Assembly: GCA_021818475.1 (NCBI GenBank) | Contig: JAKADZ010000001.1 | Coordinates: forward strand, 72,562-136,561 | DNA: 64,000 nucleotides | Source of the DNA: Nanobdellota archaeon | GTDB lineage: Archaea > Nanobdellota > Nanobdellia > Pacearchaeales > GW2011-AR1 | Direction: 5' to 3' | Shown: piece after piece, positions 1,493 to 54,291 of the stretch | Layout: each line of letters begins with the position of its first letter | Position numbering within the stretch: the stretch's first letter is position 1 | The notes under the pieces: generated by a model | Databases searched by the model: none | What the model saw: the letters and a program-made list of their open reading frames with translations, nothing else | What the model was told of the DNA's origin: nothing | Program-made: the position numbers and the translations under genes

Positions 1493-1584
1493 CTATTCTT
1501 TCTTCATCCCCTTAATATGTAAATCGTGCATTCATTTGGCTCGAAGAGACGAATGACATTTGAACTTCATTCAAATCACGAACT
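1493..1584. repeat. hairpin module plus displaced diverged copy of the Lhr C-terminal codons
   Basis: Core hairpin TCATTTGGCTCGAAGAGACGAATGA at 1532-1556. A second hairpin (7-bp stem) lies at 1558-1576. Positions 1493-1531 (minus) read ATGCACGATTTACATATTAAGGGGATGAAGAAAGAATAG = MHDLHIKGMKKE*, which mirrors the real Lhr end MHELHLKGIKE*. Confidence 0.65.
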
Positions 1585-4161
1585 TCACTCTTTTATTCCT
1601 TTCAAATGAAGTTCGTGCATTCTTTTCAAGAATGCCTGTTTGTCTTCTATCTTTATCATGTCAGAATGCCCCTGCATTATAATTCCCAATGCAAACGGAC
1701 TTGGAAGTTCAGTATCCCTGATTTTTATCTTAACTCTTCCTTCTTTTATCCACTGCAGAACTAATTTCGCATTTTCAATATCCATTAAATCTTCAAGAAC
1801 TTCTCTTCTCGCTTCCCTTAAAATAGGAAATTCAGATGAGATTTTCTTAACTGCTGCAAGAACAAAATGAGATTTCATATTCTGTTTTCCTACTGATTTT
1901 TTCATTCCTCTGTAAGTTTTTAGAATCATCATAGACCTTGTCGCGCAATGTCTGAATCTCCTCGCCAAAACATCAGTTCTCTCAACAGCTTCTTTCAAAA
2001 CTTCCTCAAGATTTTCAGGTTTCAGAAAATTCATAACTTTCTCAATGTTCATTTTTTCTCCTGCGATGTAAAAACTGCTGTCATTAATTCCCATCTCAAC
2101 ATCTCTTCCTCCTGCCCTGCCAAGCAAAAATCCGATTGCTCTGGATAAAACATCGTTGACTCTTCTTCCATACATGCTGTGAAAAATCAGATAATTCTTT
2201 TCTGAATTGTATCTCTCAACCAATAAATTGCCTGAATGAGGAATCTCAAGATAATTATGCTGTTCATAAAAATAATTGTAAATTGAATCTGCTGTTGAAT
2301 TATCAACATAAAGATGTTCTTTTATCAGTTCGATTATCTCTGATTTTTTAACCTTATTTTTGAATCGGTCATTCATCAATGTTCTGAATTTATTAATTTC
2401 AATTGCAGAATCAAAACTAAGCGGAAGCATTTCGCTAAACCATGAAGGAATAGTCGGCGAGCGGTCAACAGCAGGCCTTACATAAACATTCATCCCCCTA
2501 GTGTAAAGATAAATATATTTCTTTCCTCCCAAAACAAAAACATCTCCTTTCTTCATTCTTTCCAAAAATCCCTCGTCAATTGCCCCAATAGGTTCATTGC
2601 TTGGAGACATTTTTACTGTGATAAAAGATTCTTCGGGGATTGTTCCGATATTTGTAAGGTAAAGAACCCTCGCCATTTTGCCTTTCTTGCCTATCTGTTT
2701 GGTTTTTTGGTCATACCATATTTTTGCATAAATATTATTTTTCTCAAGCGCATAATCCCCAGCAAGATAACTTATCACGTCATAAAAATCATTTCTTGTA
2801 AGATTTGAATAGCAATAGCTTTTTTTTACCAAAGAAAATAATTCCTCTGCATCCCATATTTTGTAAATAGACATTCCGAATATCTGCTGACTAAGAACAT
2901 CAAGGCAATTTTTCGGAAAATAAATTCTGTTTATCTTTTTTTCAATCATCTCTTTCTGGATTATACTGCATTCAACTAAATCATCCCTGTCCAGAATTAT
3001 GAATCTTCCCTTTGCTATCTCGTGAAGTTTATGCCCCGCCCTTCCCAATCTTTGCAAAGCTCTTGCACTTGATTTCGGACTTCCAAGCATTATGACCAAA
3101 TCAATAAATCCAATATCAATTCCCAGTTCCAAACTGGTTGAGCATACAACTACTTTCAGTTTTCCGTCTCTCAATTTTTCTTCAATCTCAAATCTATGCT
3201 CTTTGCTTAATGAAGAATGATGAGCTGCAATATTATCGTCGCCGTATTCGGTTGGAAATTTTTCTTTGAGATGATTGACTACCCTTTCTGTAGCTGAACG
3301 CGTATTTGTAAAAATCAAAGTTGTCTTATGTTCTTTTATCATAGAATCAATTAAATCGTACACACTGGTTCCGCCAAGGTCTCCACTGATTAAATCCCCG
3401 ACACCTATAACTTTTGTGTCAAGTTTTTTATCAAGTTTTACATTAGCAATTAAAACCTCCCTGTCATCAGATATCCCGACTAAATATTTTGCAACTTCTT
3501 CAAGAGGAGCAATTGTTGCGCTCAGTCCGATTTTAACCGGCCATACCTGGCTTACTTCATTAAGCCTTTCTAAAGTTAAACTCAGATAAACTCCCCTCTT
3601 ATTGTCTAAAGCGTGAATCTCGTCGACAATGCAAAATTCAGTCATTCTTAAATAATCAATAAATTTTTTTGTTGTTAATAAGATTGCAAGAGATTCGGGA
3701 GTTGTAACAAGAATGTGAGGGGATTTTCTTGCCATCTGATTTCTTTCTGCAACAGTTGTATCTCCAGTTCTGAGCCCGACTCTTATTTTCTGAAGTTTAA
3801 TCCCTTTTGCTTCTGCAAGTTTGTAAATATCCTCGAGAGGCTCAATTAAATTTTTGTGAATATCATTGCTCAATGCTTTTAATGGAGAAGTGTAAACCGC
3901 ATAAATGTGATCATCAAGCTGATTTTTTTCTGCAAGCATGACTAAATAATTAATAATTGCAAGAAATGCGGTAAGAGTCTTGCTGCTTCCTGTTGGCGCA
4001 GATATCAAAATATTTCTTCTTTCCCAGACATTCATTACTCCGTATTTTTGAGTGATTGAGAAATTTTTAAATTTTGAAAAGAACCATTCTCTGACGAGCG
4101 GATGCAGAATTCCAATTATTTCTTTGTCTTCTCTTGGCTCAGTTTCAAATATTTGTGTCAT
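1585..4161 (-). CDS. lhr: Lhr-type superfamily 2 ATP-dependent DNA helicase
   Basis: 858 aa. Helicase motifs APTGSSKT (I), DEIH (II), SAT (III) and QRLGRAGH (VI). The long C-terminal region is typical of Lhr-core proteins. Confidence 0.9.
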   Translation of the reverse strand: MTQIFETEPREDKEIIGILHPLVREWFFSKFKNFSITQKYGVMNVWERRNILISAPTGSSKTLTAFLAIINYLVMLAEKNQLDDHIYAVYTSPLKALSNDIHKNLIEPLEDIYKLAEAKGIKLQKIRVGLRTGDTTVAERNQMARKSPHILVTTPESLAILLTTKKFIDYLRMTEFCIVDEIHALDNKRGVYLSLTLERLNEVSQVWPVKIGLSATIAPLEEVAKYLVGISDDREVLIANVKLDKKLDTKVIGVGDLISGDLGGTSVYDLIDSMIKEHKTTLIFTNTRSATERVVNHLKEKFPTEYGDDNIAAHHSSLSKEHRFEIEEKLRDGKLKVVVCSTSLELGIDIGFIDLVIMLGSPKSSARALQRLGRAGHKLHEIAKGRFIILDRDDLVECSIIQKEMIEKKINRIYFPKNCLDVLSQQIFGMSIYKIWDAEELFSLVKKSYCYSNLTRNDFYDVISYLAGDYALEKNNIYAKIWYDQKTKQIGKKGKMARVLYLTNIGTIPEESFITVKMSPSNEPIGAIDEGFLERMKKGDVFVLGGKKYIYLYTRGMNVYVRPAVDRSPTIPSWFSEMLPLSFDSAIEINKFRTLMNDRFKNKVKKSEIIELIKEHLYVDNSTADSIYNYFYEQHNYLEIPHSGNLLVERYNSEKNYLIFHSMYGRRVNDVLSRAIGFLLGRAGGRDVEMGINDSSFYIAGEKMNIEKVMNFLKPENLEEVLKEAVERTDVLARRFRHCATRSMMILKTYRGMKKSVGKQNMKSHFVLAAVKKISSEFPILREARREVLEDLMDIENAKLVLQWIKEGRVKIKIRDTELPSPFALGIIMQGHSDMIKIEDKQAFLKRMHELHLKGIKE

Positions 4162-4624: not shown

Positions 4625-5772
4625 AAACAATATATTTTGACAACGCTGCAACGACAAGAGTCGACGATGAAGTTTTGAAAACAATGCTTCCTTATTTTAC
4701 TGAGAATTATGGAAATGCCTCTTCAATTCATTTCAAAGGCCAGGAAGCAAAAGATGCAATGGAAAAAAGCAGAAAGATAATCGCAAAAGCTTTGGGGGCA
4801 AAAACTGAAGAAATAATTTTTACTTCAGGGGGAACAGAATCAAATAATCTTGCATTGAAAGGATTATTCTTCTGGAATAAAGAAAATAACACGGGCAAAG
4901 ATCACATAATCACAACCAAAATCGAGCATGATTGTATTCTAAACACCTGCAAATGGCTGGAAAGACAGGGAGCAAAAGTAACTTATCTTGACGTTGACGA
5001 AGAAGGATTTGTCGATTTAAACCAGCTTGAAAAATCAATAACTGATAAAACAATTGTTGTTTCAATAATTCATGGGAATAATGAAATTGGGACAATACAG
5101 GACATGGAAAAAATTGGGAATATCTGCAGGAAGAAAGGAGTTTTATTCCATACTGATGCATGCCAAAGTTTCACAAAAACTTTCCTTGATGTTAAAAAAC
5201 AAAATCTTGATTTAGTAACATTAAATTCGCATAAAATACACGGGCCAAAAGGAGTCGGAGCGTTATATATTCGTGAAGGAATAAAAATAGTCCCTCTGAT
5301 GCATGGCGGAGGCCATGAAAGAAAAATAAGAAGCGGAACAGAAAATGTTTCCGGAATAGTCGGATTTGGAAAAGCAGTTGATATTGCAAATAAAAAAAAT
5401 GTTGAAAAAATGATTAAATTAAGAGATAAATTAATTGAAGGAATATTAAAAATCCCAAAAACAAGACTTAACGGGGCTAAAGAAAAAAGGCTCTGCAATA
5501 ATATAAATGTCTCTTTCAGCAACATAGAAGGAGAATCAATTAGTGGTTATCTGGAGACTCATGGCATCTGCACTTCTACAGGAAGTGCCTGTGCATCACA
5601 TTCATTGGAAACAAGTCATGTTTTGAAAGCAATCGGACTGCCTCCGGTTCAGTCAAACAGCACATTAAGAATCAGTATAAGCAAATATACCACCGAAGAA
5701 GAAGTTGATTATTTTTTAAAAGTTCTTCCTGGAATAGTTGAAAAATTAAGGAGGATGTCTCCAATAAAATGA
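4621..5772 (+). CDS. nifS: cysteine desulfurase (NifS/IscS type, class V aminotransferase)
   Basis: 383 aa. Motifs SGGTESNN, PLP-lysine context SHKIHGPKG and catalytic Cys loop STGSACAS. Confidence 0.92.
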   Translation: MKTIYFDNAATTRVDDEVLKTMLPYFTENYGNASSIHFKGQEAKDAMEKSRKIIAKALGAKTEEIIFTSGGTESNNLALKGLFFWNKENNTGKDHIITTKIEHDCILNTCKWLERQGAKVTYLDVDEEGFVDLNQLEKSITDKTIVVSIIHGNNEIGTIQDMEKIGNICRKKGVLFHTDACQSFTKTFLDVKKQNLDLVTLNSHKIHGPKGVGALYIREGIKIVPLMHGGGHERKIRSGTENVSGIVGFGKAVDIANKKNVEKMIKLRDKLIEGILKIPKTRLNGAKEKRLCNNINVSFSNIEGESISGYLETHGICTSTGSACASHSLETSHVLKAIGLPPVQSNSTLRISISKYTTEEEVDYFLKVLPGIVEKLRRMSPIK

Positions 5773-5824
5773 CACTTATTCATTCGCTAAATAAATTATC
5801 AAATGAGAGAATGAGCCCGATACA

Positions 5825-6064
5825 ATGAAAGAGTTAAGCAAATTAGTTCCTGGAGAAGAAGGAGTTATATCTGATATAACTTGTACTCGTGAACTTGCAA
5901 GCAGATTAATGACGATGGGAATTTATCGGGGAAATAAAATAACAATGCTTCGCGCTGCTCCTTTCGGAGGCCCACTCGAAGTTGACGTAGGATATAATGT
6001 GCTAATCAGAAAATCTGAGGCAAGATATGTTCAAGTAGAAAAATTGGAGGAAAATTTAAAATGA
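5825..6064 (+). CDS. feoA: FeoA-domain protein
   Basis: 79-aa SH3-like FeoA pattern (LVPGEEGVISDI...RLMTMGIYRGNKITMLR...GPLEVDV). No feoB in the window. Confidence 0.8.
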   Translation: MKELSKLVPGEEGVISDITCTRELASRLMTMGIYRGNKITMLRAAPFGGPLEVDVGYNVLIRKSEARYVQVEKLEENLK

Positions 6065-7818: not shown

Positions 7819-8169
7819 ATGAGCAAGATTAGAAGCAGGCAAAGAGGAGCAAAACTGAATAAATCAAAACATTATAGGATTATTCTGGGAAAAAAAGAAA
7901 TAACTATTCCGGGGAAAAAATTAACTGATAAAGAGATTACTTTTTTTAGGGGAGAAAACAAATATTTTTGTGGCTACTTAAGACAACCTCATCTTTATTT
8001 TGGTAAATTCACCGGGCTTTGCGCTTTATGCGATTTTGGAGCTTGTGATTATCTGCATATTTTTAATTCATTACAAAATTCATGTCCTGTTTATCAACGG
8101 GAAGTTAAAGAAATGGAAGAATATGAGCGTGAAAGATTGGAACATGAAACAATTTATCGTCAGACTTGA
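7819..8169 (+). CDS. hypothetical Cys-containing protein
   Basis: 116-aa ORF with a basic N-terminus and a Cys cluster (CALCDFGACDYLH...SCP). No family recognised. The TGA stop abuts repeat module 8167-8445. Confidence 0.5.
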   Translation: MSKIRSRQRGAKLNKSKHYRIILGKKEITIPGKKLTDKEITFFRGENKYFCGYLRQPHLYFGKFTGLCALCDFGACDYLHIFNSLQNSCPVYQREVKEMEEYERERLEHETIYRQT

Positions 8170-8445
8170 CCCACTATTAAAGGGAAGGTCAGGCCGAGCA
8201 TTTGCACGAATGCAGAAAATATCAATCGCAATGAGTGCGGGTGCGAGTTTAAGAAACCGGAGGCGAGCGATTTCGCGAGTGCCGGAAATTTAGTTTTCTT
8301 TTACACGTTAGCTTTTCTTTCTGCATTTCTATGCAGAATGGGCGGGATTCCACTCGCACTTTTTCTAAAAGAAAAACCACGCAATGAGCGAGGTCGGGAG
8401 GTGTTGTCGCAGAAACTAGTTTCACCAAAGGGATATTAAAGATTT
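8167..8445. repeat. mosaic GC-enriched intergenic repeat (long module, copy 1)
   Basis: Positions 8174-8260 match 47531-47617 almost base for base (GGGAAGGTCAGGCCGAGCATTTGCACGAATGCAGAAAATATCAAT..AATGAGTGCGGGTGCGAG). Also present are GATTTCGCGAGTGCCGGAAAT (compare 47432-, 53083-), CAATGAGCGAGGTCG (compare 53116-) and a second GGAGGTGTTGTCGCA end. Confidence 0.7.
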
Positions 8446-22353: not shown

Positions 22354-22377
22354 TTAAATTTTTCTACATTTAATAAA

Positions 22378-22539
22378 GGCTCCGTAGCTCACTGGGTTTC
22401 TTTAAAAAAGAAACTACAATGGTAGAAATGCTTAAAACGCATTCATTCGCTACTTCGCCAAAAGAAAAGGCTCCGTAGCTCAGCCTGGTTAAACTCAAAA
22501 CAGGAAGTTTTGGTAAGAACCATTCAGCTACATTACAAT
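22378..22539 (+). repeat. two extra 5' fragments of tRNA-Lys separated by filler containing a degenerate CGAATG hairpin module
   Basis: GGCTCCGTAGCTCA at 22378 and GGCTCCGTAGCTCAGCCTGGTTA at 22469 are identical to the first 14 and 23 nt of the intact tRNA at 22540. The upstream flank motif CTACAT..A.AAT is also duplicated. The module TCATTCGCTACTTCGCCAAAAGA lies at 22443-22465. Confidence 0.7.
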
Positions 22540-22614
22540 GGCTCCGTAGCTCAGCCTGGTTAGAGCACTGGACTTTTAATCCAGGTGTCGGGGGTTCAAA
22601 TCCCCTCGGGGCCA
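22540..22614 (+). tRNA. tRNA-Lys (anticodon TTT)
   Basis: Hand-folded cloverleaf: acceptor GGCTCCG/CGGGGCC (one G-U), D stem GCTC/GAGC, anticodon stem CTGGA/TCCAG, loop CTTTTAA, T arm GGGGG-TTCAAAT-CCCCT. CCA is not encoded. Confidence 0.9.
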
Positions 22615-22625
22615 TGAAGGATTGA

Positions 22626-36114: not shown

Positions 36115-38307
36115 ATGGCAGAAAAAGAAACACAATTGCAGAAAATTCAGAGACTCAATTCTAGTCCGAAGAATATCAGAAATATAGCGACAAGCGCGCA
36201 CATTCACCACGGCAAGACTGCATTAACAGATAATCTTCTTGCAGCATCTGGTTATATGGCTGCAAAAAATGCAGGAAACCTTGAAGAAGGAATGGCAACA
36301 TGGCAGCACTCAGATGAACAGGAAAGATTAATGACTGTCGACGCTGCTAACGTTTCTATGGTTCACGATTTTCAGGGTGAACAGTATTTAATTAATTTAA
36401 TTGATACCCCAGGTCACGTCGATTTCGGAGGAAATGTTACAAGGGCTATGAGAGCTATCGACGGAACAATCGTTTTGGTATGCGCTGTCGAGGGAATAAT
36501 GCCCCAGACAGAGACAGTTATCAAACAGGCATTGAGAGAAAGAGTTCAGCCGGTTTTATTTATCAATAAAGTTGACAGATTAATCAAAGAAATGAAACTG
36601 ACTCCAGAAAGCATGCAGCAAAGATTTGTAAAAATCATCAATGAATTTAATGATTTAATTGCAAAAATTGCAGAACCTGAATTTAAAGAAAAATGGCTTG
36701 TTAATATTAATGATGGAAGTGTTGCATTCGGAAGTGCGAAAGAAAACTGGGCATTGTCAGTTCCGTTTATGAAAAAAAATGGAATTACTTTCAAAGATAT
36801 TTTTACATTAGTTGAAATGAACGACGCTGACAGAAAAGAATGGACATGGAAAAATGCGCCGTTATATGAAGTTCTTTTGGATATGGCAGTAAAACATTTA
36901 CCTAATCCTTTAGAAGCACAGAAATACAGAATTCCAAAAATCTGGAAAGGAGATTTAGATTCTGAATTCGGGAAAGATTTAATGAACTGCAATCCAAACG
37001 GAAAAATTGGTTTTGTCATCACAAGAATTGTAATCGACCCTCGTTCAGGAAAAGAAATTTCAGCAGGAAGATTATTCTCTGGAACATTAAGAAATGGTAT
37101 GGATGTTCATCTTAACTTGGCAAACAAAGAACAAAAAGTTCAGCAGATATTTGTATACAATGGAGTAAAGCCCGAACAGATTGATGAAATCGGTCCTGGA
37201 AATGTATTAGCAATTTCAGGAGTTACAGGAGAAGCTGGAGAAACTGTAACAGTAGGTCCTGAAACTCCTTTCGAAGAATTGAAACATATTTTTGAACCGG
37301 TAGTTACAAAGTCAATTGAAGTAAAAAAGATGATGGACTTGCCAAAGCTCGTCGAGATTTTGAAACAGGTCGCAAAAGAAGACCCTTCTGTTAAAGTTGA
37401 AATTAATGAACAGACAGGAGAATCTTTAATTTCAGGAATGGGGGAACTTCATCTGGAAATTATTGAAAACAGAATTAAAACCGAGAAAGGACTTGATGTA
37501 AAAACTTCAGCACCTATCGTAGTATACAGGGAAACAGTCAATAAAGAATCACCTTCTGTCGAGGGAAGAAGTCCAAACAAACACAATAGTTTCTTTATTT
37601 CAGTCGAGCCTTTGGAAGATGATGTTTATGAAGCAATCAAAAGCGGAGAAATTCCCGAGGGAAGAGTCAAGAAAAAGAGCGGAGAACTTGCAACAAAATT
37701 CTCAAGATTCCCCGAATGGGATAACGAAACTGTAAAGAGCATCAGGGATATTTACAAAGGAAATGTTTTCTTCGACAAAACAAAAGGAGAAGTTCACATC
37801 GGTGAAGTTATCGAAATGGTATTGGACGCTTTCGAAATGGTTATTGACAAAGGACCATTGGCAAGAGAACCATGCACCAAGATGAAAGTTTCTCTTATGG
37901 ATATCAGACTTCACGAAGATGCAATTCACAGAGGTCCTGCTCAGGTTTACCCTGCAGTAAGGGAAGCAATGACTGAAGCAATGAAACAGGGGGACGCTTG
38001 TCTGCTTGAACCGGTCCAGATTCACCTAATTGAAGTTCCCGACAGATTTATGAACACAATCACAAGACTAGTCGGAGGCAAGAGAGGACAAATGCTTGAA
38101 GTATCTCAGGAAGGAGATGAAACACAAATAAGAGCAAAGATTCCCGTCGCTGAAATGATTGGATGGAGCAATGACTTGCGTTCTGCAACAGAAGGAAGAG
38201 GAGTTTCATCACTGGCAGATCAGTTATTCGAAAAAGTTCCTCGTTCTTTGACTGATGAAATCGTTAGAAAGATCAGAGAAAGAAAAGGTTTAGCCGAAAA
38301 CCAGTAA
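36115..38307 (+). CDS. fusA: translation elongation factor 2 (aEF-2)
   Basis: 730 aa. G1 AHIHHGKT, G3 DTPGH, NKVDR and the diphthamide-region HEDAIHRG. Confidence 0.97.
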   Translation: MAEKETQLQKIQRLNSSPKNIRNIATSAHIHHGKTALTDNLLAASGYMAAKNAGNLEEGMATWQHSDEQERLMTVDAANVSMVHDFQGEQYLINLIDTPGHVDFGGNVTRAMRAIDGTIVLVCAVEGIMPQTETVIKQALRERVQPVLFINKVDRLIKEMKLTPESMQQRFVKIINEFNDLIAKIAEPEFKEKWLVNINDGSVAFGSAKENWALSVPFMKKNGITFKDIFTLVEMNDADRKEWTWKNAPLYEVLLDMAVKHLPNPLEAQKYRIPKIWKGDLDSEFGKDLMNCNPNGKIGFVITRIVIDPRSGKEISAGRLFSGTLRNGMDVHLNLANKEQKVQQIFVYNGVKPEQIDEIGPGNVLAISGVTGEAGETVTVGPETPFEELKHIFEPVVTKSIEVKKMMDLPKLVEILKQVAKEDPSVKVEINEQTGESLISGMGELHLEIIENRIKTEKGLDVKTSAPIVVYRETVNKESPSVEGRSPNKHNSFFISVEPLEDDVYEAIKSGEIPEGRVKKKSGELATKFSRFPEWDNETVKSIRDIYKGNVFFDKTKGEVHIGEVIEMVLDAFEMVIDKGPLAREPCTKMKVSLMDIRLHEDAIHRGPAQVYPAVREAMTEAMKQGDACLLEPVQIHLIEVPDRFMNTITRLVGGKRGQMLEVSQEGDETQIRAKIPVAEMIGWSNDLRSATEGRGVSSLADQLFEKVPRSLTDEIVRKIRERKGLAENQ

Positions 38308-38362
38308 GGCTAAATCATTCATTCGTCAAAGCCAAATGAAAGGACTTGCTGAGAATCAGTAA
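38289..38362. repeat. stop-spanning hairpin, CGAATG-type hairpin module and displaced synonymous copy of the aEF-2 C-terminal codons
   Basis: TTTAGCC (38289-38295) pairs with GGCTAAA (38308-38314) across the stop codon. The core TCATTCGTCAAAGCCAAATGA lies at 38319-38339. Positions 38339-38362, AAAGGACTTGCTGAGAATCAGTAA, encode KGLAENQ*, identical to the real C-terminus. Confidence 0.7.
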
Positions 38363-41656: not shown

Positions 41657-41695
41657 AAATATATTATAACCTCTTTTTCACAAATCAGGAGAAGG

Positions 41696-41859
41696 CTCTC
41701 AAAGGGAAAACATATTAAAGAAAATTTTAGGTGTTCTCATCAGCCTTGAGCAGTCTCTTAAAGGGAAAACATATTAAAGAAAACCGATTAGGTGTTCTCA
41801 TCAGCCTTGAGCAGTCTCTTAAAGGGAAAACATATTAAAGAAAACCGATTAGGTGTTCT
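41696..41859 (+). repeat. tandem repeat, about 2.7 copies of a 59-61-nt unit
   Basis: The unit is CTCTTAAAGGGAAAACATATTAAAGAAAACCGATTAGGTGTTCTCATCAGCCTTGAGCAGT, with copies starting at 41696, 41755 and 41816. Copies 2 and 3 are identical over their shared length, and copy 1 differs in the AAATTTTAGG segment. Confidence 0.9.
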
Positions 41860-42082
41860 TTAGTTGAACAAACGCGTTAAATTTTTTTTATGAATTATTT
41901 TTTCCTATTGGAGAAATCTGACGAAGTCAATTTCATAGCAATTTATAACCAAAATTTCTAAAAAAATTTTTGCAAATCATTTTGTATTGAAATTTTTCCG
42001 GTGAAGGGAGAACAAAGAAATCAGAATGATAAATACAATAAACAATAATAATCCTTAAATACTAATCATTAATAATTTTTTT

Positions 42083-44600: not shown

Positions 44601-45419
44601 ATGATTATGACAAAATCAGATTCGAACATTAATTTTGGCCCTTCGGGCCTCGGTCCTGTTAAAGATGCAATTTCAAATCTTGAAATGTATCATCAGCTCG
44701 GATTAAAAGCATGTGAAGTGGCTTTCACTTATGGTATATACATTAAGGAAAAAGAAGATGCAATAAAGATAGGAAAAAAAGCAGAAGAGCTCGGAATAAA
44801 ATTAAGTATTCATGCCCCTTACTGGATTAACTTAAATTCTAAAGAGAAAAAGAAAGTCGAAGAAAGCAAAAAAAGAATTTTAGACTGCTGCAAAATTGGA
44901 ACATTAATGAAAGCTTATCGGGTTGTATTTCACACAGGATTTTATTCCGGGATGGATAAGGAAGAAGCTTATGAAAATATTAAAAAAAGAATTTTGGAAA
45001 TCCAGGAAGGAATGAAAAAAGAAAAATACACTCCAAAATTAGCTCCGGAAATAATGGGAAAAGTAAATGTTTTTGGAAGTGTGGAAGAAATTTCGAGACT
45101 TTCAAAAGAAACCGGCTGCTCTTTCTGCATAGATTTCGCACACATTCTTGCAAGGTACAAAAGTTATCGCATAAAAGAGACACTTAGTGAATTTAAAGAA
45201 GCAAAAGAATTGCACATTCATTTTTCCGGAATTGAATATGGAGAAAAGGGAGAAAAAAACCATAAGAAAACCCCTGAAAAAGACCTGAAAACTCTCATAT
45301 CTGAACTGCCAAAAAATAAAGATATTGTAATCATAAATGAATCACCTTATCCGGTAGAAGATTCTGTTCTTGGATTAGCAATAAGCAGGCGTGACCACAC
45401 TCTTAAAGGGAAAACATAA
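44601..45419 (+). CDS. nfo: AP endonuclease family 2 / endonuclease IV-like TIM-barrel protein
   Basis: SIHAPYWINLNS, VVFHTG and FCIDFAHI match the metal-ligand blocks of endonuclease IV-like enzymes. The last ~6 codons (HTLKGKT*) lie within repeat copy 45400-45447. Confidence 0.65.
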   Translation: MIMTKSDSNINFGPSGLGPVKDAISNLEMYHQLGLKACEVAFTYGIYIKEKEDAIKIGKKAEELGIKLSIHAPYWINLNSKEKKKVEESKKRILDCCKIGTLMKAYRVVFHTGFYSGMDKEEAYENIKKRILEIQEGMKKEKYTPKLAPEIMGKVNVFGSVEEISRLSKETGCSFCIDFAHILARYKSYRIKETLSEFKEAKELHIHFSGIEYGEKGEKNHKKTPEKDLKTLISELPKNKDIVIINESPYPVEDSVLGLAISRRDHTLKGKT

Positions 45420-45447
45420 TAAAGAAAACCGGTTAGATGTTCTTTAC
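45400..45447 (+). repeat. solo copy of the 41696-type unit
   Basis: CTCTTAAAGGGAAAACATAATAAAGAAAACCGGTTAGATGTTCTTTA matches the first ~45 nt of the tandem unit, including the terminal GTTCTTTA seen in the last tandem copy. Confidence 0.65.
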
Positions 45448-47307: not shown

Positions 47308-47632
47308 CTTTTTTTTCTTTATCGCCCTTTTTTGAAATATAATAATTAATCAATTTTATCTAAAACCCGCATTAAAAATTTTCCCCATTAATAATTTTCA
47401 TCGGAAATTTTTCCTCAACGAAAGTGAGTGATTTCGCGAATGCCAGAAATATTAAATGCAATGAGCTGGGTCGCGAATTAGGAAAAATTTCATTTATCTC
47501 AAAAAATTCTTATCAGGCATGACCACAAATTTAGTGGGAAGGTCAGGCCGAGCATTTGCACGAATGCAGAAAATATCAATGGTAATGAGTGCGGGTGCGA
47601 GTTAACGAAACCGGAAGTGTCGTCGCATTTTT
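47308..47632 (+). repeat. composite GC-enriched intergenic repeat (module B followed by long module A, copy 2)
   Basis: Positions 47308-47515 align with 52975-53195 (for example GATTTCGCGAATGCCAGAAATATTAAATGCAATGAGCTGGGTCGCGAAT versus ...CCAAAAATATTAAATGCAATGAGCGAGGTCGCAAAT). Positions 47524-47632 align with 8167-8265. The repeat fills the whole spacer between ORF 46877..47293 and smc. Confidence 0.7.
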
Positions 47633-52479: not shown

Positions 52480-52597
52480 AGCGGGGTGGAGCAGCCTGGA
52501 GTGCTCGTCGGGCCCATAAGCAAATCCGTAGGTTTGTATTCCTACGCTGTCGCATAGGAAACCCGAAGGTCGTGTGGTTCAAATCCCACCCCCGCTA
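52480..52597 (+). tRNA. initiator tRNA-Met (anticodon CAT) with ~42-nt intron at the canonical 37/38 position
   Basis: Acceptor AGCGGGG/CCCCGCT (A1:U72) and anticodon stem TCGGG/CCCGA (three G-C pairs 29-31:39-41) are initiator hallmarks. The loop is CCCATA, followed by the intron at ~52519-52560, which contains its own hairpin CGTAGG/CCTACG. The T arm has one extra nucleotide (GTGTGG versus CCCAC). Confidence 0.85.
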
Positions 52598-52617: not shown

Positions 52618-52688
52618 CCCCTCATAGCATAGTGGTAATGCAGTCGGCTGTAGACCGGCGTATCCAAGTTCGATTCTTGGTGAGGGGA
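52618..52688 (+). tRNA. tRNA-Tyr (anticodon GTA)
   Basis: Acceptor CCCCTCA/TGAGGGG with the archaeal/eukaryal C1:G72 identity pair, D stem GCAT/ATGC, anticodon stem GTCGG/CCGGC, loop CTGTAGA, T arm CCAAG-TTCGATT-CTTGG, discriminator A. Confidence 0.92.
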
Positions 52689-52960
52689 TATAATTCGGTT
52701 AAGCGAAGCGAAATCGAATTCATTAAAGAATCGAACGTAGTTTCATTTGGCTCGAAGAGACGAATGAGAGGGAACGAGCGAAGCGAAGTGAACTCCGATT
52801 CTTGGTGAGGGGACTTTTATATTCCGCAAATAGAAAATAATTCCCTGTTGGGCGGGCGAGAGTTTTCGCGATGGTAAGGTCAGTGTTAAGTGGGCGGGGG
52901 CTCGAGCTGGTGAGGGGACTTTATTATTTCACGAATAGAAAAATAATTCCGTTCTGTGCA
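52689..52960 (+). repeat. two inserts, each followed by a repeated tRNA-Tyr 3' end plus original downstream flank
   Basis: CGATTCTTGGTGAGGGGA at 52796-52813 is identical to the tRNA 3' end, and TGGTGAGGGGA recurs at 52908-52918. Both are followed by a similar ~45-nt flank (CTTT.AT.ATT.C.CG.AAATAGAAAA.TAATTCC). Insert 1 (52689-52794) carries the core TCATTTGGCTCGAAGAGACGAATGA (52743-52767) and an inverted copy of the T-arm (AAGAATCGAAC). Insert 2 (52851-52907) is GC-rich. Confidence 0.75.
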
Positions 52961-52974
52961 GGAGAGAATTTTAA

Positions 52975-53251
52975 CTTTTTTCTTTATCACCTCTTTTTGA
53001 AAGGTGTTTATAAATTTTAATAACCTTCGGAGATTTACTCCTTTAACAACTTTTATCGGAAATTTTTTCTTTCCGAAGGTGAACGATTTCGCGAATGCCA
53101 AAAATATTAAATGCAATGAGCGAGGTCGCAAATCAGAAAAAATTTTATTTATCTTAAAAATTTCTGAAAGAAATTTTTGCATTTTTTTCTATTAGTATGA
53201 GAAGAAATAAATGAGTGAGGTTACGATTTAAGAAAACCGATTAAGTGTTCT
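52975..53251 (+). repeat. composite intergenic repeat (module B copy 2 plus truncated module A 3' end)
   Basis: Aligns with 47308-47515. The following AATGAGTGAGGTTACGATTTAAGAAAACCGATTAAGTGTTCT parallels AATGAGTGCGGGTGCGAGTTTAAGAAACCGGAGG of the long module and the AAGAAAACCGATTAGGTGTTCT of the 41696 tandem unit. Confidence 0.65.
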
Positions 53252-53388
53252 CCACTAACGAAATATTTAAAAAAGAAAATTACAGAATAAAATTATAAAG
53301 AGGGGAAAATGAAGGAATTAAAAGAAAAAGAAGAAGAGGAAGAAGAGGAAATTTTTGACGACGTCATTGACGACCTCGAACTTGACAG

Positions 53389-54291
53389 TTAACGTATTCC
53401 CAGCGTTATTTTATTGTTTTCTTTATTTATCTCGCTGAAGTTTGTTTCTATAACTAGGTTTATATTATTCACATTTAACTGAGCAACCCAGATATTGCTT
53501 ATATGCAAAGAAATCCCGTTGCCAATTTCAACAGGATTAATATCTATCTTTCGGATAAGATTATTATCTGCATATATTGCAACATCAGAAGAATTTGCAT
53601 CGGCAAGCCCGACATTTAATATATTCATATCGAGATTAAGGAATCTGCCGCTCATGGTAGCAGAAGCATTTTCAAATATTAAATCAGGATAACTGGGAAT
53701 TGAGTATAAATCATTAAGCAGTTTCAGTGTATCATCCCCTATGGTCTGGTCGCAGTTACTGACATTATACATTATATTTGCAGGGTTCACCGAATGGTTA
53801 AATCCCAAAACATGGAGAAGTTCGTGAATCGCGATATTTGGTTTGGGGCAATCAGAATTTCGTATAAGCAAAATTTCCCCTGAAGTAATTATATTAAAAT
53901 TTCCTGCAACAATTATCTGTTTTGGCCCCCCTTCTCCTGCAACGAACATCCCATTTTCAATTTGATTTCTGTCTTCACATGTAACAGTTATTTCTTCATT
54001 ATTATCAACGGGATAAAAGACCAAAGGAGTAAGATTCTCCATTATTGTAAATGCATTTTCCATGTCATTTTGCTTCTGAAGAGGACAGGTGCTTGAAATT
54101 CTGTAAGAAATGTCAGGGCTTGAAAACCTCATGTTTGGGTAATACTGCATAACCGAACTGCCATCGATGCTGAAGTTGGTATTATTGTATTTTACCTCAA
54201 AACTTACCGGATTTGTTGGAAGCATGTAAAAAAATAAACTTGCAAAAATAATCAGCAAAAATGCCCCGACAAAAATCAACCTCCAATTCAT
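53389..54291 (-). CDS. secreted metzincin-type zinc metalloprotease with C-terminal CARDB-like domain
   Basis: N-terminal signal/anchor (WRLIFVGAFLLIIFASLFFY), the zinc motif HELLHVLGFNH (HExxHxxGxxH), and a C-terminal beta-sandwich-like segment. Confidence 0.8.
   Translation of the reverse strand: MNWRLIFVGAFLLIIFASLFFYMLPTNPVSFEVKYNNTNFSIDGSSVMQYYPNMRFSSPDISYRISSTCPLQKQNDMENAFTIMENLTPLVFYPVDNNEEITVTCEDRNQIENGMFVAGEGGPKQIIVAGNFNIITSGEILLIRNSDCPKPNIAIHELLHVLGFNHSVNPANIMYNVSNCDQTIGDDTLKLLNDLYSIPSYPDLIFENASATMSGRFLNLDMNILNVGLADANSSDVAIYADNNLIRKIDINPVEIGNGISLHISNIWVAQLNVNNINLVIETNFSEINKENNKITLGIR

What the first reader, a model, noticed from the sequence alone, without database searches (positions are those of the whole stretch)
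52668..52960. tRNA-Tyr 3' end and its downstream flank are reiterated twice, each time behind a GC-rich insert
Seen directly:
- After the intact tRNA-Tyr (52618-52688) comes a 106-nt insert.
- Then CGATTCTTGGTGAGGGGA (52796-52813), which matches the tRNA 3' end 18 of 18, plus about 45 nt of flank.
- Then a 57-nt GC-rich insert.
- Then TGGTGAGGGGA (52908-52918) followed by a similar flank (CTTTTATATTCCGCAAATAGAAAATAATTCC versus CTTTATTATTTCACGAATAGAAAAATAATTCC).
- Insert 1 contains the same 25-nt hairpin core as the Lhr locus. It also contains an inverted copy of the tRNA T-arm (AAGAATCGAAC, the reverse complement of GTTCGATTCTT). This parallels the target-complementary stems at the two protein-gene loci.
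- No integrase or other mobility gene is nearby.

Inference: two successive events each displaced the old tRNA end. The pattern resembles nested att-site remnants of integrative elements, but with miniature cargo.
Basis: partly seen in the sequence, partly recalled or inferred. Interest (0 to 1): 0.75.

Follow-up and report, generated by a model that had tools for sequence, protein, structure and literature searches.

The report
Nested insertion scars behind tRNA-Tyr
Small hairpin-bearing DNA pieces were inserted at least twice into the end of a tRNA-Tyr gene of a tiny DPANN archaeon, each bringing a fresh copy of the gene's end and pushing the old end downstream, and the same thing happened at three essential protein genes nearby.

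Summary
An intact tRNA-Tyr (52618-52688) is followed by a 107-nt insert and an 18/18 copy of its 3' end. Then come about 94 nt and a third, partly decayed copy (52902-52918) with a similar flank. Independent assemblies give the same sequence. A sister genome with the identical tRNA has no repeats, and another contig has exactly one.

The locus belongs to a wider pattern. The hairpin TCATTCG-N(7-13)-CAAATGA occurs four times in the window (0.02 expected), each time at a duplicated gene end: Lhr, IscS, EF2 and tRNA-Tyr. At the protein genes the in-gene end and the displaced end encode the same peptide and stop through different codons (EF2 P=1e-5). The two copies therefore evolved in different lineages. 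A relative has 0.85-1.3 kb of gene cargo at the same EF2 junction and at DnaG.

Best reading: nested scars of miniature, non-autonomous insertions that replace a gene's end. This is akin to archaeal integration into the 3'-distal part of tRNA and EF-2 genes, and to fungal mitochondrial "mORF" C-terminal replacement. No integrase, casposase or nuclease lies in the window, so the enzyme is unknown. I class it as a new variant of a known kind, of moderate to high interest.

The parts
52618..52688 (+). Intact tRNA-Tyr(GTA), the only functional copy. Its last 18 nt (52671-52688, T-loop CGATT to discriminator A) form the reiterated segment.
   Evidence: ARAGORN; Rfam RF00005 62.4 bits. The sequence is identical in L007 and L009.
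52689..52795 (+). Insert 1, 107 nt and the youngest. It contains hairpin 52693-52719; an inverted copy of the T-arm at 52726-52736; the 26-nt H hairpin core at 52742-52767; and subterminal direct repeats AGCGAAGCGAA.. at 52702-52721 and 52777-52795.
   Evidence: Fold -27.3 kcal/mol, z=-2.83. H motif located.
52796..52813 (+). Displaced copy 2 of the tRNA-Tyr 3' end, 18 of 18 identical.
52814..52907 (+). Insert 2, the older element. It is a 31-nt AT-rich flank (52814-52844) followed by a G+C-rich module (52845-52907) homologous to the dispersed 'F' repeat family and to the element at the same place in L009.
   Evidence: Alignment A1; nhmmer fragment hit 52854-52871 (only E=2.1); G+C 0.63; fold of 52845-52918 z=-2.82.
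52902..52918 (+). Displaced copy 3 of the tRNA-Tyr 3' end. The last 11 nt are exact. The T-loop and T-stem part has decayed (TCGAG-C-TGG against TCGATTCTTGG).
52919..52972 (+). Flank 2, about 80% identical to flank 1 plus the first 22 nt of the F-like module. It is probably the left part of a still older, truncated element of the same kind.
   Evidence: blastn 52803-52866 against 52908-52972, 80% over 65 nt, E=7.5e-7; the repeat finder family D16.
1493..1622 (-). Lhr locus with the same architecture. In-gene end 1585-1620 (MHELHLKGIKE*); an inverted copy of that end; H hairpin 1532-1556; displaced end 1493-1531 (MHDLHIKGMKKE*). A 10-nt direct repeat TCGTGCATTC lies at 1524-1533 and 1613-1622.
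5752..5828 (+). IscS/NifS locus. In-gene end RMSPIK* (5752-5772); H hairpin 5780-5806; displaced end RMSPIQ* (5808-5828), with the serine codon TCT against AGC.
38284..38362 (+). EF2 locus. In-gene end KGLAENQ* (38284-38307); GGCTAAA, complementary to TTTAGCC in that end; H hairpin 38319-38339; displaced end KGLAENQ* (38339-38362). The two ends differ at 6 nt, all synonymous.

Best explanation
**What the repeats are**
The repeats are scars of at least two, probably three, successive insertions at one site of the tRNA-Tyr gene. That site is the ~18-20 nt running from the T-loop to the 3' end.

Each incoming piece was a small non-coding module of about 95-110 nt. Each carried its own copy of that segment at its gene-proximal end, so the tRNA stayed intact. 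The resident end, and everything behind it, was pushed downstream and became a dead relic. The most distal relic is therefore the oldest. Insert 1, which carries the hairpin shared exactly with the Lhr locus, is the youngest.

**The same process at other genes**
The same thing happened at the 3' ends of EF2, IscS and Lhr in this genome. In a relative it happened at EF2 and DnaG with 0.85-1.3 kb of gene cargo.

**Most likely mechanism (inferred)**
The new ends are functional, differently coded versions of the old ones, so the inserted DNA most likely came from related archaea. I think entry was targeted to the conserved gene end in one of two ways:
- break-induced, homology-anchored recombination with an illegitimate join right after the hairpin, as in homing of fungal mitochondrial mORF elements; or
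- a recombinase or casposase acting in trans.

The modules themselves are non-autonomous.

**Shown versus inferred**
- Shown: the anatomy, the empty site in a relative, the recurrence at other genes, and the foreign or selected nature of the new ends.
- Inferred: the order of events, the enzyme, and the role of the hairpin.
For: - **Anatomy.** The sequence reads intact gene, insert, 18/18 copy, insert, decayed copy with a similar flank.
- **Empty site.** L007 has the same synteny and an identical tRNA but no repeats.
- **One-insert state.** L009 has one insert with a homologous right end abutting a 17/20 copy of the tRNA end.
- **Hairpin distribution.** TCATTCG-N-CAAATGA occurs 4 times against 0.02 expected. 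Each occurrence is at a duplicated gene end, and none is found in about 80 kb of relatives.
- **Selection on both copies.** The in-gene and displaced protein ends encode the same peptide and stop with different codons. Random substitutions reproduce this with P=1e-5 for EF2, 1.3e-3 for IscS and 0.018 for Lhr.
- **Displaced EF2 end is ancestral.** The displaced end and its flank match L016's native end at 22 of 24 nt, plus the flanking ATTTCT.
- **3'-end specificity.** A scan for duplicated C-terminal tails found 5 real cases against 0.6 in shuffles. The matching scan for N-terminal heads found none.
- **Cargo-bearing versions.** L016 has larger versions at the same EF2 junction and at DnaG.
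- **Precedents.**
  - Archaeal elements integrate into the 3'-distal part of tRNA and EF-2 genes.
  - They reconstitute the ORF and form tandem arrays (PMC4779613, PMC6563490).
  - Fungal mORFs insert a foreign C-terminus and leave the native one downstream (PMC3630166).
Against: - No recombinase, casposase or endonuclease gene was found in the window or within the inserts.
- The cargo ORFs in the relative have no recognisable domains.
- No free element or attP was found in viral contigs.
- All seven inserts in this window are 55-125 nt. That uniformity is odd for random deletion remnants.
- Flank 1 resembles flank 2, which needs the extra assumption of an older element.
- The hairpin is in the opposite orientation at tRNA-Tyr compared with the three protein genes.
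- No close strain with 0, 1 or 2 inserts was available. The comparators are at about 62% identity for the neighbouring protein and about 93% for EF2.
Confidence: 0.6

Rival explanations
1. **Classical site-specific integration, then deletion.** Full-size integrative elements (tyrosine integrase or casposon) entered at the tRNA-Tyr 3' end. Nearly all of each element was later deleted, leaving attL and attR with about 100 nt between them.
For: - The direct repeats run from the T-loop to the tRNA 3' end, the gene-proximal copy is intact, and the repeats are nested.
- Known archaeal elements use 3'-distal tRNA and EF-2 targets and stack in tandem.
- A relative has kb-size cargo at the same EF2 junction.
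Against: - The same hairpin, 26 of 26 identical at two loci, sits at four unrelated targets. One integrase would not serve all of them.
- All inserts in the window are 55-125 nt, and none is intermediate or large.
- No integrase or cas1 fragments were found.
- The identical core at the protein genes is only about 5-11 nt, and its length varies. That does not fit a fixed-length casposon target-site duplication.
Confidence: 0.2
2. **Local duplication.** Replication slippage or template switching at the tRNA-Tyr 3' flank made the repeats, followed by divergence. No foreign DNA or mobile element was involved.
For: - The spacings of 125 and 105 nt are similar, and flank 1 resembles flank 2.
- Inverted copies of adjacent sequence, such as AAGAATCGAAC, are typical of template switching.
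Against: - Units 2 and 3 are similar over only 65 of about 105 nt, so this is not a simple tandem repeat.
- Insert 1 shares 26 exact nt with a locus 51 kb away.
- L009 has a homologous module at the same site.
- At EF2, IscS and Lhr the two copies differ by selected, synonymous changes, including Ser TCT against AGC. Local copying cannot produce that.
Confidence: 0.07
3. **A functional RNA or regulatory array.** The downstream tRNA-end copies and hairpins would be maintained because they act as promoter modules, processing or termination signals, tRNA-fragment decoys, or pieces of a split or intron-containing tRNA.
For: - The F-family modules contain a BRE/TATA-like A-rich stretch (AAAATATTAAAT), and in L009 the module lies just upstream of a gene start.
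- Insert 1 and the G+C-rich part of insert 2 fold better than shuffles, z about -2.8.
- The distal 11-mer is conserved between the window and L009.
Against: - No Rfam family matches even at E<=10.
- The tRNA is complete without the inserts.
- By eye there is no bulge-helix-bulge arrangement and no exon1-exon2 helix.
- No CCCCTCA partner exists for the distal acceptor strands.
- L007 and L020 do without the array.
- The third copy is decaying by substitution and 1-nt deletions.
Confidence: 0.1
4. **Assembly artefact.** The arrangement would be a strain-variant chimera.
For: The source is a metagenome assembly, and duplicated ends with synonymous differences could in principle be two alleles mis-joined.
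Against: - The locus is identical in contigs from different samples. The flanking gene was also found in Logan and NCBI records.
- The EF2 locus has the same gene layout in two assemblies from different samples (L013, L014), and 6 further similar places were not shown. I did not compare that intergenic sequence base by base.
- The hairpin insert between the copies belongs to neither putative allele.
- L009 and L016 show the same kind of structure in unrelated datasets.
Confidence: 0.02

Closest known systems
Archaeal integrated elements and casposons that target the 3'-distal part of tRNA genes and of the aEF-2 gene (Krupovic et al. 2016, PMC4779613; 2019, PMC6563490)
   Same: - The target classes match: tRNA 3' end, EF-2 3' end, and 3' ends of other protein genes.
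- Direct repeats of the target flank the insert.
- The gene is reconstituted by element-derived sequence.
- The same site is used repeatedly, giving arrays.
- Rarer 5'-distal tRNA integration is also known, which may parallel the tRNA-Lys locus here.
   Different: - The inserts are only 55-125 nt and carry no Cas1, PolB or integrase.
- There are no long terminal inverted repeats, only 7-nt inverted arms.
- Repeat length varies from about 5 to 20 nt of exact identity.
- The remainder of each duplicated protein end is recoded rather than identical.
- One hairpin module occurs at four different targets.
- The host is a DPANN (Pacearchaeota-like) archaeon.
Fungal mitochondrial mobile ORF (mORF) elements: Allomyces macrogynus atp6; Glomus atp6, atp9, cox2 and nad3 (Beaudet et al. 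2013, PMC3630166)
   Same: - A foreign C-terminal coding end is inserted in frame.
- The native C-terminus is left downstream as a relic.
- The copies are much less alike at the DNA level (63.5% for atp6) than at the protein level (91% for atp6).
- The native copy matches close relatives.
- The arrangement is explained by horizontal transfer and homing.
   Different: - Those elements carry a LAGLIDADG or GIY-YIG endonuclease ORF. The window's inserts carry only hairpins, and the relative L016 has ORFs of unknown function.
- This is an archaeal chromosome rather than an organelle.
- A tRNA gene is affected here too.
CIMEs and MITE-like non-autonomous derivatives of integrative elements; REP/RAYT and IS200/IS605-derived hairpin elements (from my own knowledge, not tested here)
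   Same: - Small, multi-copy, hairpin-containing non-coding modules lie just downstream of genes.
- They would depend on an enzyme encoded elsewhere.
- A relative's genome encodes an IS200-type Y1 transposase flanked by hairpins.
   Different: - REP and IS200/IS605 elements do not duplicate or replace the target gene's end.
- CIMEs are kb-sized and tied to one att site.
- The window hairpin is unrelated in sequence to the L016 IS200 hairpins.

Membership tests
Tyrosine-integrase integrative element (attL/attR at a tRNA gene) | Direct repeats of the tRNA 3' part flank the insert, and the gene-proximal copy completes the tRNA. | tested here: met
   18/18 repeat plus a decayed third copy, and an intact proximal tRNA.
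Tyrosine-integrase integrative element (attL/attR at a tRNA gene) | An integrase gene, or a fragment of one, lies within or next to the element. | tested here: not met
   The inserts are 94-107 nt. Pfam finds no integrase in any window ORF.
Tyrosine-integrase integrative element (attL/attR at a tRNA gene) | An empty site exists in related genomes. | tested here: met
   L007 has the identical tRNA-Tyr and no repeat. L020 has none either.
Tyrosine-integrase integrative element (attL/attR at a tRNA gene) | A free or circular form exists that carries attP. | tested here: inconclusive
   Viral-contig scans for the tRNA end, the hairpin and the F motifs found nothing. Other collections could not be searched again.
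Casposon | Cas1 casposase and a family B polymerase. | tested here: not met
   None in the window.
Casposon | Terminal inverted repeats, and a target-site duplication of fixed length that is identical at the time of insertion. | tested here: not met
   There are only 7-nt inverted arms (TCATTCG/CAAATGA). Exact repeats measure 18 nt at the tRNA and 10 nt at Lhr; at EF2 and IscS I read them by eye as only about 5-6 nt. The rest of each protein end is recoded.
Casposon | The target is the 3'-distal part of a tRNA gene or of aEF-2, with tandem re-use of the site. | tested here: met
   Literature.
Homing 'mORF' element with C-terminal replacement | The in-frame inserted C-terminus differs from the native one mainly by synonymous changes, and the native C-terminus is retained downstream. 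| tested here: met
   EF2, IscS and Lhr. The displaced EF2 end resembles a relative's native end.
Homing 'mORF' element with C-terminal replacement | An endonuclease ORF is encoded between the two ends. | tested here: not met
   There is no ORF in the window's inserts. The L016 cargo ORFs (193 aa and 254 aa) have no significant Pfam, PHROG or PDB match.
MITE or other non-autonomous transposon | Multi-copy, with conserved termini and a short target-site duplication of constant length. | tested here: inconclusive
   The hairpin has 4 copies with invariant 7-nt arms and variable interiors. The F family has at least 4 full copies. The flanking duplications vary in length and are gene-specific.
Archaeal BHB intron, or split or permuted tRNA gene | The tRNA is incomplete without joining the pieces, and a bulge-helix-bulge motif lies at the junctions. 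| tested here: not met
   The tRNA-Tyr is contiguous and scores 62 bits. Predicted folds and inspection by eye show no BHB geometry. The distal copies have no 5' partner.

The most novel reading that the evidence does not exclude
The H and F modules may be a previously undescribed class of miniature mobile element in DPANN archaea. Each would insert specifically into the last codons of essential genes, or the last nucleotides of tRNA genes. Each would carry a recoded replacement end together with a stem complementary to that end. Targeting or stabilisation might work through base-pairing, in a way that could be programmed for each gene. Repeated insertion next to the intact gene would then build repeat-insert-repeat arrays, formally similar to leader-proximal spacer acquisition.
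Probability: 0.15. Interest if true: 0.85.

Novelty: new variant of a known kind. Interest (0 to 1): 0.6.

Why it matters
- **Genome plasticity in a streamlined archaeon.** Essential, highly conserved genes (EF2, IscS, Lhr, tRNA-Tyr) have repeatedly had their 3' ends swapped for foreign, synonymously recoded versions, with only a small hairpin as visible cargo.
- **If the modules are mobile in their own right.** They would be the smallest known elements that replace a gene's end. They would mark inter-lineage DNA exchange in uncultured DPANN archaea. They would also offer a natural example of how an element can sit inside an essential gene without harming it.
- **For annotation.** The relics can be mistaken for tRNA fragments or pseudogenes. 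The in-gene ends can also mislead phylogenies.

Tried and rejected
- **BHB intron or split tRNA.** The tRNA is complete. I saw no exon1-exon2 helix or bulge geometry, and the T-arm complement lies in the 5' half of the insert.
- **Diversity-generating retroelement.** The differences between copies are not adenine-specific, and no reverse transcriptase is present.
- **Simple tandem duplication.** Similarity covers only 65 of about 105 nt.
- **In-situ decay of an identical target-site duplication.** Rejected on the all-synonymous differences and the Ser TCT/AGC switch.
- **Known RNA families.** None found at E<=10.
- **Metagenome scan with the tRNA-Tyr 3' half.** It gave one locus, L009.
- **Viral-contig scans** for the tRNA end, the hairpin and the F motifs: nothing.
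- **Contigs of homologues of the flanking 156-aa protein.** L008 and L010-L012 did not reach the tRNA locus.
- **The closest relative by RNase HII (93%, L019).** The contig ended inside the neighbouring gene.
- **Foreign tract inside EF2.** Sliding identity showed only a weak dip in third-position identity over the last 31 codons.
- **Duplicated N-terminal ends of protein genes.** None found.
- **Cargo ORFs of L016 and L009.** No significant family or structure match.

Full report

The window is from an AT-rich archaeon. Its best named EF2 relatives are Candidatus Pacearchaeota, Woesearchaeota and Nanoarchaeia. The genes are core housekeeping ones, including RNA polymerase B and A, S12, S7, EF2, EF1-alpha, ribonucleotide reductase, SMC, Lhr and DnaG.

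ARAGORN and Rfam find one tRNA-Tyr(GTA) at 52618-52688. Its last 18 nt, CGATTCTTGGTGAGGGGA, recur exactly at 52796-52813 after a 107-nt insert. TGGTGAGGGGA recurs at 52908-52918.

52803-52866 aligns with 52908-52972 at 80% over 65 nt (E=7.5e-7). The third copy also still shows the T-loop CGA when two 1-nt gaps are allowed, giving 52902-52918. Both events therefore duplicated the same ~18-20 nt, from the T-loop to the discriminator base.

Insert 1 holds the reverse complement of the T-arm at 52726-52736. It also holds a 26-nt stretch identical to 1531-1556, next to the Lhr gene.

The 1036-nt intergenic region is identical in contigs assembled from other samples (L001, L002). An artefact is therefore unlikely.

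**2. Comparison with relatives**

- **L007** is a syntenic sister contig (NCBI GCA_902385925.1). Its neighbouring protein is 62% identical. It has the gene order M10 peptidase, tRNA-Tyr, tRNA-Met, 161-aa gene, a further 310-aa gene, then RNase HII, and an identical tRNA-Tyr. It has no repeated end, and the intergenic region is 493 nt.
- **L020** is another relative. It has a different tRNA-Tyr sequence followed by a 216-aa ORF, and no repeat.
- **L009** is a JGI contig with the identical tRNA-Tyr. After the tRNA come 121 nt and then TTCGAGTTGTGGTGAGGGGA, which matches the tRNA end at 17 of 20. The sequence to the left of that copy is homologous to the window's second insert and to a dispersed repeat family, which I call F.

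States with zero, one and two or more inserts therefore exist, and the space behind this tRNA varies between lineages.

**3. The locus is one of a set**

The hairpin motif TCATTCG-N(3-20)-CAAATGA occurs four times in the window against 0.02 expected. It does not occur in about 80 kb from relatives. The four sites are downstream of Lhr (1532-1556), IscS/NifS (5780-5806), EF2 (38319-38339) and tRNA-Tyr (52743-52767).

At the three protein genes the order, in the direction of the gene, is always the same:
1. the in-gene end with its stop codon;
2. a short segment complementary to that end;
3. the hairpin;
4. a second, displaced copy of the last codons with a stop.

| Gene | In-gene end | Displaced end | P that random substitutions keep this much amino-acid identity |
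|---|---|---|---|
| EF2 | KGLAENQ* | KGLAENQ* (6 nt differences, all synonymous) | 1e-5 |
| IscS | RMSPIK* | RMSPIQ* (Ser TCT against AGC) | 1.3e-3 |
| Lhr | MHELHLKGIKE* | MHDLHIKGMKKE* | 0.018 |

The two copies therefore diverged while both were under selection as real gene ends, which means in different lineages.

RKGLAENQ is invariant in the 52 EF2 homologues whose C-termini I listed (P0009-P0060), except for one KGLSENQ. The displaced EF2 copy and its flank (AAAGGACTTGCTGAGAATCAGTAA|AATTTCT) resemble the native end of relative L016 (AAAGGACTTGCTGAAAACCAGTAA|ATTTCT). This points to the displaced copy being the resident one.

A scan for duplicated C-terminal tails found five cases against 0.6 in shuffles. 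The matching scan for N-terminal heads found none.

**4. The same process with cargo**

In L016 the EF2 stop is followed by about 850 nt containing ORFs of 36 and 193 aa. After those comes a displaced ..KG(C)LAENQ* at the same junction.

DnaG in L016 ends IKLMSL*. A displaced NKLMSL* lies 1334 nt downstream. Between them are a 254-aa ORF and an IS200-type Y1 transposase flanked by hairpins. The cargo ORFs have no recognisable domains.

**5. Anatomy and order of events at tRNA-Tyr**

- Insert 1 (52689-52795) has a left hairpin, the T-arm complement, the H hairpin and a pair of subterminal direct repeats. It folds better than shuffles (z=-2.83).
- The older element (52814-52907) is an AT-rich flank followed by a G+C-rich F-like module.
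- Flank 2 (52919-52972) repeats the flank and the first 22 nt of that module. It is best read as the truncated left part of a still older element.
- Full F copies lie at 8191-8250, 47422-47481, 47545-47604 and 53076-53135, with further fragments elsewhere.

**6. Mechanism**

What is shown: DNA carrying a replacement gene end was inserted just upstream of the resident end, repeatedly, at several conserved genes.

What is inferred: the new ends are foreign, the targets are all conserved genes, and no recombinase is nearby. I therefore favour entry of DNA from related archaea, targeted to the gene end. This could be break-induced, homology-anchored recombination with an illegitimate join right after the hairpin. 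That is how fungal mitochondrial mORF elements create the arrangement of foreign C-terminus, ORF and native C-terminus (PMC3630166). Alternatively it could be a recombinase or casposase acting in trans.

Several features speak for site specificity rather than random microhomology:
- the EF2 junction is the same in two lineages;
- the tRNA segment is the same in three events.

One hairpin module at four unrelated targets speaks against a single classical integrase.

**7. What is already known**

Archaeal integrated elements and casposons are known to do the following (PMC4779613, PMC6563490):
- target the 3'-distal part of tRNA genes and of aEF-2;
- rebuild the ORF with their own sequence;
- stack in tandem.

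The principle is therefore known. The new aspects are the miniature, enzyme-less modules, their shared hairpin, the recoded ends carried with them, and their occurrence in a DPANN genome.

**8. Rejected ideas**

I rejected BHB introns or split tRNA, diversity-generating retroelements, simple tandem duplication, neutral decay of a target-site duplication, and assembly artefact. The reasons are given in the tried-and-rejected field.

**9. Verdict**

The enzyme and the role of the hairpin remain open. I class this as a new variant of a known kind, with interest 0.6.

Noticed in passing
window 52480-52597 (+): There is an initiator-like tRNA-Met(CAT) with a 42-nt intron at the canonical 37/38 position (about 52519-52560). 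ARAGORN and Rfam both missed it. With the intron removed, ARAGORN calls tRNA-Met. The orthologues in L007, L009 and L020 have no intron.
   Followed up: partly
window 22375-22562 (+): The 5' end of tRNA-Lys(TTT) (gene 22539-22615) is reiterated twice upstream. AAAGGCTCCGTAGCTCA lies at 22375-22391. A 23-nt exact copy lies at 22469-22491. The spacings are 91 and 71 nt. The first spacer contains GCATTCATTCG, which resembles half of the H hairpin. This may be the 5'-side counterpart of the tRNA-Tyr array.
   Followed up: partly
window 8191-8250, 47422-47481, 47545-47604, 53076-53135 (+); fragments at 8262-8289, 8379-8399, 53210-53230: A dispersed intergenic repeat family, 'F', has the consensus ..ATTTCGCGAATGCC-AAAAATATTAAATGCAATGAG-G+C-rich-CGAG. 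It has a dyad CATTYG/CRAATG and a BRE/TATA-like stretch. All copies are on the + strand. It is present in L009 but absent from about 80 kb of other relatives. It could be a portable promoter or a miniature element.
   Followed up: partly
window 41668-41860 and 45372-45446 (+): Three tandem units of about 61 nt, two of them identical, contain AAAGGGAAAACATATTAAAGAAAACCGATTAGGTGTTCT. A fourth copy lies 3.6 kb away, and a related piece lies at 53226-53252. They look like repeated promoter or leader modules.
   Followed up: no
window 8150-8185 versus 47505-47540: The 95%-identical repeat pair 8182-8261 / 47536-47615 extends leftwards in diverged form. At 8.1 kb that extension covers the stop-codon region of ORF 7819-8169 (CGTCAGACTTGACCCAC against TTATCAGGCATGACCAC). 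The module may therefore supply that ORF's end.
   Followed up: no
window 53310-53393 (+): An unannotated 27-aa highly acidic ORF, MKELKEKEEEEEEEIFDDVIDDLELDS*, is conserved together with its promoter region in L007 and L020. It converges on the M10 peptidase gene.
   Followed up: partly
L016 3490-3786, 9114-9299, 12242-14435: Relative L016 has small ORFs of unknown function wedged between RpoB and RpoA and between S12 and S7. It also has HicA/HicB toxin-antitoxin genes between EF2 and EF1-alpha. The core operons of these archaea seem to be common landing places for small cassettes.
   Followed up: no
window 12151-12495 (-): A MazF/PemK-type toxin gene (Pfam 2.6e-33) lies among housekeeping genes.
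   Followed up: no
EF2 homologues P0067 and P0073: Some Pacearchaeota-like EF2 proteins are about 1200 aa long and contain an intein with a LAGLIDADG endonuclease domain. EF2 is therefore a target of other selfish elements in this group as well.
   Followed up: no
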